Of a DNA stretch of 64,000 nucleotides, positions 57,649-59,064 are shown in pieces. Where the stretch lies: the sequence record PQ036202; one strand, given 5' to 3'. The notes below the pieces were generated by a model, which made no database searches, was not told where the DNA came from, and worked only from the letters and a program-made list of their open reading frames with translations. This stretch comes from Escherichia phage GEP101. The translations under genes were made by a program, and so were the position numbers. How positions within the stretch are numbered: the stretch's first letter is position 1; every line of letters begins with the position of its first letter.

Positions 57649-59064
57649 ATGAGCGAATTATTTAAACATGCGCACCTTCATGTAGGTCGAACTGAAAATG
57701 GTGCTGTAAACCATACTTCATCAATGTCTGCTCTGGTAGACTTCTACAAAGCCGCTGGCTCAAGCCGTAGCAATGTAGAAATCTTACCAGACCTGTTCTA
57801 CAAAGCTTTGCGTGAGGATGTTGATGTTGCAGTTCGTATTTTACTGCATATGCGAGATGTACGAGAAGGTATGGGTGAGCGTAAAGCTTTCCGAACTGTT
57901 TTACTTCAAGCGATTGAAGATAAGGTTTTAGAACCTACACAGGCTCTTCGCATTATGGATAAGATTGCAGAACTTGGTCGTTTTGATGACTTCAAAATCT
58001 TTGTAGGTACTCGTTTTGAGACAGATGCCTTCAAGCATTTAGAAGCAGCATTATTAGACCCTGCAACAGCAGGTTTAGCGGCTAAGTGGTTACCACGAGT
58101 AAAACCACGCCACAAACAGTTTGTAAAACGTTTCTGTAAGTTTGCAAACTTAAGTGAGAAGGAGTATCGCACACTGTTATCTGCACTGTCTGATACAGTT
58201 GAGCAAAAAATCTCTGCTAATGAGTTTGGTAAGATTGACTACAGCAAGATTCCTTCACTCGCTGCTGCACGTTACCAAAAACTCTTTAACCGTAAAGATG
58301 GGGAACGCTACAAAGCTTACATCGAGTCCTTATCAAAAGGTGAGACTAAGATTAACGCTGGTGCTGTTTACCCATACGATGTGATTAAGTCTATCAAGCA
58401 TGGTAATGCAGATGTTGCTAATGAACAGTGGAAAGCACTACCAAACTGGATGGCAGAGGGTGAAAACATCTTGTGTATGACTGATGTCTCAAGCTCAATG
58501 TCTTGGGTGAATCTTGGCTCAATCACTGCCCTTGATATTGGTGTATCCCTTGCCTTGTATGTAGCAGAACGTAATACGGGTTGCTTTAAGAATGAGTTGA
58601 TGGTTTATTCAACAAACCCTCATTTCATCGAACTGAGTGGTGATTTGAAAAACCGTCATCGTCAGGTGATGCGTCATGTTGAATATGGCTCAACTAACTT
58701 ACAAGCAGCTTTTGACCGTATTCTTGAGACAGGTAAGAGAAACAACTTGACTCAGAAAGATATGCCAAGTAAGCTTATCATCTTCTCTGATATGGAGTTC
58801 AATCAGGTTGATGGTGCAAATGGTCGTACAAACTTTGAAGCAATTCGTAGTAAGTACGAAAAAGCTGGATATGAGATGCCACAACTGGTATTCTGGTACT
58901 TAGCAAACCGTAATGGTACTTGCGAAGTATCTGTTAAGGATAATGGTGTAGCAATGGTATCAGGGTTCTCTCCAGCCACTTTAAAAGCTCTGCTTGGTGG
59001 TGAGAAGTTTGACCCAATCAGCGTAATGCTCAAAGCGGTAATGATTGACCGTTACATCTGGTAA
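57649..59064 (+). CDS. vWA-domain protein with Ro60/Rsr-like (TROVE-vWA) architecture
   Basis: 471 aa; helical N-terminal region, then MIDAS motif DVSSSMS followed by LGSI and later IIFSDME; immediately upstream of tRNA array containing Y-RNA-like modules. Confidence 0.5.
   Translation: MSELFKHAHLHVGRTENGAVNHTSSMSALVDFYKAAGSSRSNVEILPDLFYKALREDVDVAVRILLHMRDVREGMGERKAFRTVLLQAIEDKVLEPTQALRIMDKIAELGRFDDFKIFVGTRFETDAFKHLEAALLDPATAGLAAKWLPRVKPRHKQFVKRFCKFANLSEKEYRTLLSALSDTVEQKISANEFGKIDYSKIPSLAAARYQKLFNRKDGERYKAYIESLSKGETKINAGAVYPYDVIKSIKHGNADVANEQWKALPNWMAEGENILCMTDVSSSMSWVNLGSITALDIGVSLALYVAERNTGCFKNELMVYSTNPHFIELSGDLKNRHRQVMRHVEYGSTNLQAAFDRILETGKRNNLTQKDMPSKLIIFSDMEFNQVDGANGRTNFEAIRSKYEKAGYEMPQLVFWYLANRNGTCEVSVKDNGVAMVSGFSPATLKALLGGEKFDPISVMLKAVMIDRYIW

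What the first reader, a model, noticed from the sequence alone, without database searches (positions are those of the whole stretch)
57649..59064. Ro60/Rsr-like (TROVE-vWA type) protein encoded next to the tRNA array
The 471-aa product has a helical N-terminal region and a C-terminal von Willebrand A domain with an intact MIDAS motif (DVSSSMS, then LGSI and IIFSDME). This architecture, and the gene's position directly upstream of tRNA-like non-coding RNAs, matches Ro60/Rsr proteins, which bind Y RNAs carrying tRNA-like modules. A phage carrying its own Ro60-like RNP next to ~25 tRNAs would suggest phage-directed RNA quality control or RNA decoy function. The N-terminal region is shorter than canonical TROVE, so it may be a divergent or minimal variant.
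Basis: partly seen in the sequence, partly recalled or inferred. Interest (0 to 1): 0.8.

Follow-up and report, generated by a model that had tools for sequence, protein, structure and literature searches.

The report
Phage Ro60-like protein plus Y-like RNAs
This Felix O1-type phage encodes a very divergent relative of the RNA-binding ring protein Ro60, and four previously unannotated small RNAs hidden between its tRNA genes look like its partner "Y RNAs"; the same protein-RNA pairing recurs in many unrelated phages and probably helps them evade bacterial defences.

The parts
57581..57610 (+). Promoter-like site (TTGACA, 18 nt spacer, TAAAGT) 39 nt upstream of the gene. It overlaps the inverted repeat TGACAGACT...AGTCTGTCA.
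   Evidence: Consensus scan, 10 of 12 matches; sequence read. Consensus match only; not shown to be functional.
57649..59064 (+). Gene for a 471-aa Ro60-like protein: an N-terminal helical (HEAT-like ring) region of about residues 1-265 and a C-terminal vWA domain with a complete MIDAS site (D279, S281, S283, T349, D381). Pfam DUF2828 + DUF7788; PHROG 850 'RNA-binding protein'; ortholog of Bas63 gp130.
59083..59203 (+). Two promoter-like sites with perfect TTGACA -35 boxes (59083-59111 and 59174-59203) between the gene and the first tRNA. They are likely start points for transcription of the tRNA/Y-like RNA array.
   Evidence: Consensus matches only.
59401..59478 (+). el1: short Y-like RNA (YrlB-like, no tRNA module). 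It has the terminal helix AGACCAA/UUGGUCU with a 5' AGA bulge opposite a 3' G bulge, followed by unpaired UUACAGCAA. It lies exactly between tRNA-Glu (ends 59394) and tRNA-Met (starts 59486).
   Evidence: Fold; strict pattern hit 59406-59473; R1 31.2 bits; R2 34.6 bits, E 1.2e-4; syntenic in all Felixounavirus-like loci.
59568..59636 (+). el2: short Y-like RNA with helix AGACCGU/ACGGUCU. The AA/UU to GU/AC difference from el1 is compensatory. It lies between tRNA-Met (ends 59562) and tRNA-Asn (starts 59646).
   Evidence: R1 42.1 bits, E 5.6e-6; R2 39.8 bits.
60052..60133 (+). el3: short Y-like RNA with the same terminal helix and CAGCAA motif.
   Evidence: R2 31.3 bits, E 7.7e-4; syntenic copies.
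60142..60278 (+). el4: YrlA-like Y RNA. The terminal bulged helix and UUACAGCAA enclose a circularly permuted tRNA-like module. Order of parts: V hairpin UUUCU-CCGGUAA-AGAAA; T arm GAAGG-UUCGAUU-CCUUC; closed 7-bp acceptor ACUCGGC-AGAU-GUCGAGU; D arm GUGU-AAUGGUA-GCAC; anticodon-stem equivalent CUUAA/UUAAG.
   Evidence: MFE fold; not called by ARAGORN; partial tRNA-model hit of 22 bits; covariation; R1 161.8 bits and R2 109.7 bits; architecture shared with genuine YrlA.
59230..63798 (+). Array of 23-24 tRNA genes, all on the + strand, in which the four Y-like RNAs are embedded. The flanking tRNAs would let RNase P and tRNA 3'-end processing release el1 and el2 as RNAs of about 83-91 nt (inference).

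Best explanation
The gene encodes a highly divergent Ro60-type protein: a helical-repeat ring capped by a vWA/MIDAS domain, filed by Pfam as DUF2828/DUF7788. Four small RNAs in the adjoining tRNA array are its cognate Y-like RNAs.

Each RNA has a terminal bulged helix immediately followed by an unpaired (U)ACAGCAA motif. This is the one module conserved across distant phages, so it is inferred to be the protein-binding site. Each RNA also has a variable 'effector' insert. In el4 the insert is a tRNA mimic opened at the anticodon loop and closed at the acceptor end, exactly the YrlA layout.

The RNAs are probably transcribed with the tRNAs from the promoters at 59083 and 59174 and cut out by tRNA-processing enzymes. 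The resulting RNPs most likely act on host RNA-handling or defence factors. By analogy with Ro60-Y RNA-PNPase complexes and phage phiLo Ro60, which binds and attenuates host PNPase, the Y-like RNA would tether or decoy a host protein. Genetics in the 99%-identical Bas63 ortholog show that the protein is needed to overcome the 'ppl' ATPase-PHP defence.

Shown here: the fold, the MIDAS site, the RNA structures and covariation, and the gene-RNA linkage. Inferred: RNA binding, processing, and the anti-defence mechanism.
For: Protein:
- AF2 model pLDDT 90.
- Only Ro60 structures match both domains.
- hhalign gives 90% probability to Ro60's last ring helix plus vWA, with MIDAS residues aligned.
- 15 of 68 family members hit Pfam vWA_Ro60.
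- PHROG 850 'RNA-binding protein'.

RNA in the window:
- Four elements share the same bulged helix and CAGCAA motif.
- There are exactly 4 strict-pattern hits on + and 0 on - in 64 kb.

Linkage across phages:
- In 65 distant loci the strict pattern gives 66 hits on the gene strand against 3 on the opposite strand. Dinucleotide shuffles give about 6 (range 1-10). 46 of the 66 lie within 1.2 kb of the gene.
- A covariance model built only from Felixounavirus el4 finds full-length matches beside homologs 39-47% identical: L019 58.9 bits (E 1e-9) and L072 57.6 bits. All 70 of 70 matches are on the gene strand.
- The second-generation model gives 48 of 48 matches on the gene strand, 31 of 44 distant-locus hits within 1 kb of the gene, and a combined 39 of 61 loci.
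- No conserved protein-coding neighbour exists.
- Many RNA-positive loci have no tRNAs at all.

Structure:
- 92.7% of pair cells are standard pairs against 35-45% when partners are slid. 33 of 36 pairs change on both sides. 0 of 500 shuffles reach the observed values.
- The acceptor-like helix has three unrelated sequences within Felixounaviruses, and all pair.

Link to Y RNA:
- R2 detects bona fide YrlA upstream of canonical Ro genes in actinophages at E 3e-7 and 6e-7.
- Rfam YrlA RF02553 hits the family members L019 and L027 at 38.2 and 35.8 bits, similar to its scores on real phage YrlA.

Function:
- PhageMaP reports that Bas63 gp130 deletion sensitises the phage to ppl and that complementation rescues it (PMC11482910).
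- phiLo Ro60 binds adjacent Yrl RNAs and host PNPase (PMC12135203).
Against: - No sequence-level similarity to TROVE for residues 1-230, so homology of the ring domain rests on a predicted structure.
- I could not inspect coordinates, so ring closure and a basic central cavity are not verified.
- Rfam's YrlA and Y_RNA models do not hit the window's RNAs. The YrlA motif GNCGAA(N)G is absent from the 5' strand; the one match at 60196 lies in the T stem and is not enriched.
- Folding energies of single elements are unremarkable (z about -1.1 to -1.3).
- A3 was aligned to the model, which favours pairing. The strict pattern requires pairing by construction; only its excess over the controls is evidence.
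- 22 of 61 distant loci lack a detected RNA by the objective criteria.
- There are no expression data for the RNAs, and no protein-RNA binding data for this family.
- The ppl result is from a preprint, and its proposed mechanism is speculative.
Confidence: 0.72

Rival explanations
1. The protein is a vWA/MIDAS protein-protein interaction scaffold with a generic alpha-solenoid N-terminus and does not bind RNA. The repeated elements are features of the tRNA array itself (processing spacers, degenerate or recombined pseudo-tRNAs) that happen to lie next to it.
For: vWA domains usually mediate protein contacts, and many vWA-only structures match the C-terminal half. No TROVE sequence signal in residues 1-230. 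In the window the elements sit inside a tRNA array, and tandem tRNAs can mimic the T-arm then D-arm order, as the false positives show.
Against: The RNA motif accompanies the gene in many loci with no tRNAs at all, for example L019, L021, L025, L029, L031, L034, L039, L042, L053, L068, L075. It is strand-locked to the gene (66 against 3 hits; 48 of 48) and concentrated within 1 kb of it. The closed acceptor helix covaries, which a decaying pseudo-tRNA would not do. Full-length fold matches are to Ro60 only.
Confidence: 0.08
2. The helix plus CAGCAA element is mainly a cis-acting regulatory site, such as an autoregulatory operator in the mRNA leader or a processing or stability element, rather than the core of trans-acting Y-like RNAs.
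For: In several distant loci a copy lies in the 5' UTR with its 3' strand abutting the Shine-Dalgarno sequence or start codon of the gene (L017, L018, L022, L024, L068). That is the classic layout for translational autoregulation by an RNA-binding protein.
Against: In the window and all Felixounavirus-like loci the four copies lie 340-1080 nt downstream of the stop codon, behind their own promoter-like sites and between tRNAs. Copies are often multiple or in arrays (8 in L019). They carry elaborate tRNA-like modules that a simple operator would not need. This rival still requires the protein to bind the motif, so it complements the main explanation rather than replacing it.
Confidence: 0.1
3. 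The resemblance to Ro60/Y RNA is convergent. The protein-RNA pair is a functional RNP, but it does something unrelated to Ro60 biology, for example acting as a tRNA-modification or tRNA-repair chaperone for the phage's own tRNAs.
For: About a third of distant loci (21 of 65) have tRNAs within 6 kb, all co-oriented with the gene. The RNA inserts are often tRNA-like, including unpermuted forms where the conserved stem replaces the acceptor stem (L064, L072). The protein-binding motif differs from that of Y RNAs.
Confidence: 0.1

Closest known systems
Bas63 (Escherichia phage JohannRWettstein) gp130, PhageMaP preprint PMC11482910
   Same: It is the same gene: 464 of 471 residues are identical, with the same position directly upstream of the tRNA array. 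The preprint already states structural similarity to Ro60, speculates that some 'tRNA genes' may be Y RNAs, and shows that gp130 counters the ppl defence.
   Different: The preprint does not identify the RNAs. The Y-like RNAs found here are not among the annotated tRNAs. They lie in unannotated gaps and under two tiny minus-strand ORF calls (bas63_0137 and bas63_0138). Family-wide gene-RNA linkage, covariation and the bridge to YrlA are not in that paper.
Bacterial Ro60 (Rsr) with YrlA/YrlB Y RNAs (Chen et al. 2014, PMC4201824; Rfam RF02553)
   Same: A ring plus vWA/MIDAS protein. Partner RNAs are encoded within 4 kb on the same strand. The YrlA topology is a terminal stem enclosing V, T, closed acceptor and D arms. 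A shorter partner without the tRNA module corresponds to YrlB. The 7-bp closed acceptor matches M. smegmatis YrlA. There is cross-detection between the models.
   Different: The protein lacks a Pfam TROVE or vWA_Ro60 match and is only 13-17% identical. The conserved 5' motif is (U)ACAGCAA placed 10 nt after an AG that opens the helix, not GNCGAA(N)G. The window RNAs score nothing with RF02553. There is no rtcBA RNA-repair operon context.
Thermus phage phiLo Ro60 with Yrl1/Yrl2 (PMC12135203; PDB 9KOP, 9L5Y)
   Different: phiLo Ro60 is a recognised TROVE-domain protein. Its Yrl RNAs were defined by a CGAA motif and lie upstream of the gene. It is a single reported case, whereas the family here has thousands of members.
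Actinophage 'Ro-like RNA binding protein' with YrlA (e.g. Mycobacterium phage LRRHood gp225, Gordonia phage Cashline gp37)
   Same: Phage Ro60 with a YrlA RNA immediately upstream on the same strand, often in tRNA-rich genomes. My model R2 detects their YrlA.
   Different: These are canonical TROVE + vWA_Ro60 proteins, 39-52% identical to bacterial Rsr. They are structurally more distant from the window protein (TM 0.55-0.62) than DUF2828 proteins of other phages and giant viruses (TM 0.8-0.88).

Membership tests
Ro60/Rsr (Pfam TROVE PF05731 + vWA_Ro60 PF25045) | Sequence match to the TROVE domain model | tested here: not met
   No TROVE hit at E<=1 for the protein and 0 of 68 family members at E<=10. 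A profile of 68 homologs finds no Ro60 in PDB sequences. hhalign does not align residues 1-230. By contrast, all 120 listed Rsr relatives carry PF05731 + PF25045.
Ro60/Rsr (Pfam TROVE PF05731 + vWA_Ro60 PF25045) | Two-domain fold: a helical-repeat ring domain followed by a vWA domain, superposable on solved Ro60 structures | tested here: met
Ro60/Rsr (Pfam TROVE PF05731 + vWA_Ro60 PF25045) | Closed ring with a positively charged central cavity that takes single-stranded RNA ends | not testable with these tools
   Model coordinates and electrostatics cannot be inspected. Only the indirect support from the extent of superposition is available.
Ro60/Rsr (Pfam TROVE PF05731 + vWA_Ro60 PF25045) | vWA domain with a complete MIDAS site (DxSxS, T, D), homologous to Ro60's vWA | tested here: met
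   D279, S281, S283, T349 and D381 are invariant. They align to Ro60 D376, S378, S380, T445 and D469 (hhalign probability 90.1%, E 1.6e-6). vWA_Ro60 is hit by 15 of 68 members, best E 1.7e-4.
Ro60/Rsr (Pfam TROVE PF05731 + vWA_Ro60 PF25045) | Partner Y RNA gene(s) within about 4 kb on the same strand | tested here: met
   el1-el4 lie 340-1080 nt downstream on the + strand. The same linkage holds in at least 39 of 61 distant loci.
Ro60/Rsr (Pfam TROVE PF05731 + vWA_Ro60 PF25045) | Physical binding of Y RNA and of misfolded RNAs | not testable with these tools
   Needs RIP/CLIP or EMSA.
DUF2828/DUF7788 family (PHROG 850) | Matches to PF11443 and PF25043 above the gathering scores, and a full-length PHROG match | tested here: met
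   DUF7788 147.3 bits (cut-off 27.1); DUF2828 103.4 bits (cut-off 29). phrog_850 E 1.4e-183 over 1-471.
YrlA Y RNA (Rfam RF02553) | Score with the curated covariance model (gathering score 69 bits) | tested here: not met
   No RF02553 hit in the window at E<=1 over 7.5 kb or at E<=10 over 1 kb. Related RNAs beside distant homologs score 38.2 bits (L019) and 35.8 bits (L027). That is the same range as genuine phage YrlA in the positive controls, 42.2 and 36.1 bits. All are below the gathering score.
YrlA Y RNA (Rfam RF02553) | Topology: 5'/3' terminal stem enclosing V, T, closed acceptor (AS) and D stem-loops, with tRNA-like T and D loops | tested here: met
   MFE of el4 compared with the description in Chen 2014. 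The T loop UUCGAUU and D loop AAUGGUA are conserved. T, AS and D helices are 100%, 97% and 100% paired, with compensatory changes. R2 aligns genuine YrlA at E 3e-7 and 6e-7.
YrlA Y RNA (Rfam RF02553) | GNCGAA(N0-1)G motif near the 5' end (putative Ro60 contact) | tested here: not met
   The only match near the gene (GGCGAAGG, 60196-60203) lies at the T stem, not the 5' strand. The motif is not enriched in the window (17 against 11.8 expected; 9 against 10.7). The conserved 5' motif is (U)ACAGCAA.
tRNA | Standard cloverleaf recognised by tRNA finders | tested here: not met
   ARAGORN does not call el1-el4. Rfam's tRNA model aligns only 60166-60216, at 22 bits against a gathering score of 29. 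In el4 the arm order is circularly permuted and the acceptor stem is closed by a loop.

The most novel reading that the evidence does not exclude
DUF2828/DUF7788 proteins and the 'bulged helix + CAGCAA' RNAs form a large, previously unrecognised sister branch of the Ro60-Y RNA system. It is carried by thousands of phage lineages, and the protein fold also occurs in giant viruses. The RNAs have interchangeable effector modules (permuted tRNA mimics, unpermuted tRNA mimics, other hairpins). The system works as an anti-defence RNP that decoys or sequesters host nucleases or RNA-sensing immunity, with ppl the first known target.
Probability: 0.45. Interest if true: 0.85.

Novelty: new variant of a known kind. 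Interest (0 to 1): 0.7.

Why it matters
- **Scope of Ro60 biology.** Ro60-Y RNA complexes are conserved from bacteria to humans, yet their roles remain only partly understood. In phages, Ro60 was known mainly from actinophages and one Thermus phage.
- **A much larger family.** A family of about 8,900 clusters, catalogued only as 'domains of unknown function', has the Ro60 fold and travels with its own Y-like RNAs. That greatly enlarges the known range of this RNP.
- **A concrete prediction.** The helix plus CAGCAA is a defined candidate protein-binding RNA element that can be tested directly.
- **A tractable model.** E. coli phages of the Felix O1/Bas63 type are easy to work with, and a phenotype already exists (sensitivity to the ppl defence).
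- **Annotation.** The RNAs are unannotated or covered by spurious ORF calls in public records.
- **Phage tRNA clusters.** At least some of their 'spacers' are functional RNAs.

Tried and rejected
**Sequence searches that found no Ro60**
- Pfam TROVE/VWA on the protein itself.
- NCBIfam.
- PDB by single sequence and by profile.
- The link to Ro60 came only from fold comparison and hhalign.

**RNA scans**
- GNCGAA(N)G, the YrlA motif: not enriched and misplaced, so I rejected it as the binding motif here.
- My first permissive stem + CAGCA scan was uninformative (299 hits on the gene strand against 226 on the opposite strand). I replaced it with the strict pattern.
- The permuted-tRNA regex produced false positives at tandem tRNAs (L040, L045, L047, L001 8007, L013 11449). 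I removed these by overlap with ARAGORN calls.
- Single-sequence folding z-scores are weak, so I did not use them as evidence.

**Genomic context**
- Conserved protein neighbours such as RtcB, ligases, PNPase or MoxR: none found, maximum 13 of 61 loci.
- The upstream DUF5681 gene (57197-57568) is not conserved next to distant homologs, so I do not count it as part of the system.
- tRNA adjacency as a general rule: it holds in only 21 of 65 distant loci, so the tRNA array is not the defining context.
- The minus-strand ORF 60114-60371 over el4 is rejected as a gene. It has no Pfam hit, and el4 lengths among relatives differ by non-multiples of 3.

**Literature**
- Chen 2014 supplementary alignments are not held, so I used actinophage loci as positive controls instead.
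- Searches for DUF2828, YrlA + phage, and Felixounavirus + Ro60 found only the PhageMaP preprint.
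Full report
**1. The observation**

The ORF 57649-59064 (+, ATG, 471 aa) exists as described. The motifs DVSSSMS, LGSI and IIFSDME are present. In an alignment of 68 homologs (A1, 41-89% identical), D279, S281, S283, T349 and D381 are invariant, which is a full MIDAS site.

ARAGORN finds 23 tRNAs, all on +, from 59230 to 63798; the first starts 165 nt after the stop codon. Rfam adds one at 61024-61102.

The window is a Felixounavirus, 96-97% identical in DNA to Escherichia phages KEP3, JH2 and JohannRWettstein. 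The gene is annotated 'hypothetical', 'vWFA protein' or, in RefSeq JH2, 'RNA-binding protein'.

**2. What the protein is**

*By sequence.* It is not a TROVE/VWA protein. Pfam gives DUF7788 (147 bits, residues 275-455) and DUF2828 (103 bits), and PHROGs gives phrog_850 'RNA-binding protein' over the full length. NCBIfam and PDB sequence searches are empty. Across 68 members, VWA_2 (41 of 68) and vWA_Ro60 (15 of 68, best E 1.7e-4) appear weakly, and TROVE never appears.

*By structure.* The AlphaFold2 model is confident (pLDDT 90.2, pTM 0.89). It is helical over about residues 28-263 and has a vWA fold over 274-464.
- Foldseek against the PDB returns nine hits at E<=1e-3. All are Ro60/TROVE structures aligned over 511-546 columns, with TM 0.52-0.66.

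*By profile comparison.* I recovered the true Ro60 and Rsr sequences from PDB alignments and collected Rsr relatives, all of which carry TROVE + vWA_Ro60. hhalign of the phage family against 24 Ro60/Rsr sequences gives 90.1% probability (E 1.6e-6). It covers phage residues 231-450 against Ro60 316-540, which is the last ring helix (Ro60 RIHPF against phage VYPYD) plus the vWA domain. The MIDAS residues align one-to-one. Residues 1-230 are related to the TROVE ring only at the level of fold.

*Conclusion for the protein.* It works like, and is probably descended from, a Ro60, but it belongs to a distinct sequence family. phiLo Ro60 is itself only about 17% identical to other Ro60s and has a HEAT region of about 280 aa, so the 'short N-terminus' is not unusual.

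*Size and spread of the family.* There are 8,904 clusters at 50% identity with E<=1e-3 and 4,106 with E<=1e-30. At least 591 IMG/VR loci encode a relative. In the viral structure library the closest folds are DUF2828/DUF7788 proteins of other phages and of giant viruses (TM 0.75-0.88). Canonical phage TROVE proteins come next (TM 0.55-0.62).

**3. Prior art**

The protein is 464/471 identical to Bas63 gp130 (bas63_0130), which sits in the same position. The PhageMaP preprint (PMC11482910) makes four relevant points:
- gp130 has 'high structural similarity to Ro60';
- the gene lies directly upstream of the tRNA genes;
- deleting g130 makes the phage sensitive to the ppl (ATPase + PHP) defence, and complementation rescues it.

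Phage Ro60 with adjacent Y-like RNAs and binding to host PNPase is established experimentally for Thermus phage phiLo (PMC12135203). It is established bioinformatically for actinophages (PMC4201824).

**4. The partner RNAs**

I could not find these described in the searchable literature.

*In the window.* Reading the non-tRNA gaps of the array showed four copies of one design: CAGA-AGACC(AA|GU)-UUACAGCAA ... (UU|AC)GGUCU-GG. All four fold with the same terminal helix: an outer stem of 4 bp, a 5' AGA bulge opposite a 3' G, then an inner stem of 7-8 bp, with CAGCAA unpaired. The AA/UU and GU/AC versions are compensatory.
- el1 (59401-59478) and el2 (59568-59636) exactly fill the spacers tRNA-Glu|tRNA-Met and tRNA-Met|tRNA-Asn.
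- el3 (60052-60133) and el4 (60142-60278) lie between tRNA-Asp and tRNA-Lys.
- el4 encloses four hairpins in the order V, T arm (GAAGG-UUCGAUU-CCUUC), a 7-bp acceptor stem closed by a 4-nt loop, and D arm. This is a tRNA opened at the anticodon loop and closed at the acceptor end, exactly the YrlA layout described by Chen et al..
- ARAGORN does not call el4, and Rfam's tRNA model aligns only part of it at 22 bits.

*Within Felixounavirus-like loci.* All four elements are syntenic in 15 loci, with conserved ends and divergent interiors. el4 lengths differ by non-multiples of three, so the overlapping minus-strand ORF (60114-60371; two tiny ORFs in Bas63) is not coding. The acceptor-like helix has three unrelated sequences (ACUCGGC/GUCGAGU, ACACGU/GCGUGU, ACCCUUC/GAAGGGU), and all of them pair. 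Overall 95% of pair cells are standard pairs, against 41-48% when the partners are slid.

**5. The RNA travels with the gene across distant phages**

I fetched 65 loci whose protein is only 39-47% identical.

*Strict sequence-structure pattern.* The pattern is AG, 4-7 nt, 0-3 unpaired nt, CAGCA[AC], a 12-170 nt insert, the complement ending in CU, then G or A.

| Set | Gene strand | Opposite strand |
|---|---|---|
| 65 distant loci | 66 hits | 3 hits |
| Same loci, dinucleotide shuffles (20 replicates) | 1-10 per replicate, mean about 6 | not run |
| This window (64 kb) | 4 hits | 0 hits |

46 of the 66 hits lie within 1.2 kb of the gene.

*Covariance models.*
- R1, built only from Felixounavirus el4, finds full-length matches in distant loci: L019 58.9 bits (E 1e-9), L072 57.6 bits, and also L078, L038 and L027. 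All 70 of 70 reported matches are on the gene strand.
- In the resulting 17-sequence alignment, 92.7% of pair cells are standard pairs (35-45% when slid). 33 of 36 pairs change on both sides, and none of 500 shuffles reaches the observed values. CAGCAA stays unpaired and conserved. The caveat is that this alignment is fitted to the model.
- R2, the second-generation model, gives 48 of 48 matches on the gene strand at E<=0.05. These include untrained loci (L020, L037, L044, L049, L055, L080) and all four window elements at E<1e-3.
- 31 of the 44 distant-locus hits lie within 1 kb of the gene.
- Combining R2 with the strict pattern, at least 39 of 61 non-duplicate loci carry the RNA. Several more have by-eye variants.

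*Context.*
- Many RNA-positive loci contain no tRNA at all. tRNAs occur within 6 kb in only 21 of 65 loci, though always on the gene's strand.
- No protein-coding neighbour is conserved; the best family is in 13 of 61 loci, and there are no RtcB or ligase genes.
- The RNA is therefore the gene's only consistent partner.

*Modularity.* Inserts are permuted tRNA mimics, unpermuted ones in which the conserved stem replaces the acceptor stem (L064, L072), or unrelated hairpins. This mirrors the binding-module plus effector-module design of Y RNAs.

**6. Relation to genuine Y RNAs**

As positive controls I fetched canonical TROVE Ro loci from actinophages.
- Rfam does hold YrlA (RF02553). It finds the expected RNAs just upstream of those Ro genes at 42.2 and 36.1 bits, below its gathering score of 69 but significant.
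- R2, which was trained only on DUF2828-linked RNAs, detects the same RNAs at E 3e-7 and 6e-7, once over the full model length.
- Conversely, RF02553 hits two DUF2828-linked RNAs, L019 at 38.2 bits and L027 at 35.8 bits. It does not hit the window's el4.
- The YrlA 5' motif GNCGAA(N)G is replaced here by (U)ACAGCAA.

The RNAs therefore share YrlA's architecture and tRNA-like module but carry a different presumed protein-contact motif. That fits a protein whose ring domain has diverged beyond sequence recognition.

**7. Likely mechanism**

*Shown.* A Ro60-type fold with an intact MIDAS site, four structured RNAs, gene-RNA co-inheritance, and YrlA-like topology.

*Inferred.*
- The protein binds the bulged helix and the CAGCAA motif.
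- The RNAs are made from the promoter-like sites at 59083 and 59174 together with the tRNAs, and are released by tRNA-processing enzymes.
- The RNP engages a host factor through the RNA's effector module or the MIDAS face. By analogy with Ro60-Y RNA-PNPase and phiLo, that factor could be an exoribonuclease. The Bas63 genetics suggest the outcome is evasion of a nuclease-type defence.
- Copies of the motif in the 5' UTR that touch the SD or start codon in some loci suggest additional autoregulation.

**8. Verdict**

The protein-level claim is already published. The cognate RNA family and its wide distribution appear to be new. I class the whole as a new variant of the Ro60-Y RNA kind, of substantial interest to RNA and phage-defence specialists. 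It is directly testable in an E. coli phage.

Noticed in passing
window 61024-61468: A 130-aa ORF (61076-61468, +) rich in CxxC pairs and ending in an HNH-like 'CSNCHRVRH' begins inside a tRNA that only Rfam detects (61024-61102, 31.7 bits; ARAGORN misses it). Bas63 has a normal tRNA-Arg(tct) at this position and no such ORF. This looks like a homing-endonuclease-type insertion into the tRNA array. Pfam gives no hit at E<=0.01.
   Followed up: partly
window 62806-63363: A 185-aa protein gene inside the tRNA array (+ strand) is a full-length DUF7338 member (E 1e-61). It is conserved in Bas63 as bas63_0153. Its function is unknown.
   Followed up: partly
window 57582-57617: The inverted repeat TGACAGACT...AGTCTGTCA overlaps the promoter-like site just upstream of the Ro60-like gene. 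It may be an operator or leader hairpin. Its GUCUG resembles the 3' strand of the Y-like RNA helix.
   Followed up: no
window 60114-60371 (- strand); L001 7079-7353: An 85-aa minus-strand ORF overlies el4. In Bas63 the same place is annotated as two tiny hypothetical proteins (bas63_0137 and bas63_0138). There is no Pfam hit, and el4 length differences among relatives are not multiples of three, so these are probably spurious gene calls over a non-coding RNA.
   Followed up: yes
L019 3400-6047: An uncultivated 87-kb phage contig carries an array of at least eight helix+CAGCAA RNAs directly upstream of its DUF2828 gene. Three or four of them have permuted tRNA-like modules. There are no conventional tRNAs within 6 kb.
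   Followed up: partly
L017 ~5960-6010, L018 5964-6090, L022 5946-6012, L024 5950-5986, L068 5976-6082: In several distant loci, including KVP40-like Vibrio phages, a copy of the motif lies in the gene's 5' UTR with its 3' strand touching the Shine-Dalgarno sequence or start codon. This suggests translational autoregulation by the protein.
   Followed up: no
L064 8192-8315; L072 8329-8428: Some family RNAs carry an unpermuted tRNA-like body (D arm, anticodon arm, T arm) in which the conserved helix+CAGCAA replaces the acceptor stem. This is a different way of fusing a tRNA mimic to the same binding module.
   Followed up: no
protein family: The closest predicted viral structures include DUF2828/DUF7788 proteins of giant eukaryotic viruses (Pithovirus, Cafeteria roenbergensis virus, Marseillevirus, Mimiviridae; TM up to 0.87). 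Literature hits for DUF2828 are plant genes. The Ro60-like family is therefore not confined to phages. I did not examine whether those genes have partner RNAs.
   Followed up: no
window 57197-57568: The gene immediately upstream encodes a 123-aa DUF5681 protein (phrog_4114). It is co-oriented with the Ro60-like gene in Felixounaviruses but is not found next to distant homologs.
   Followed up: partly
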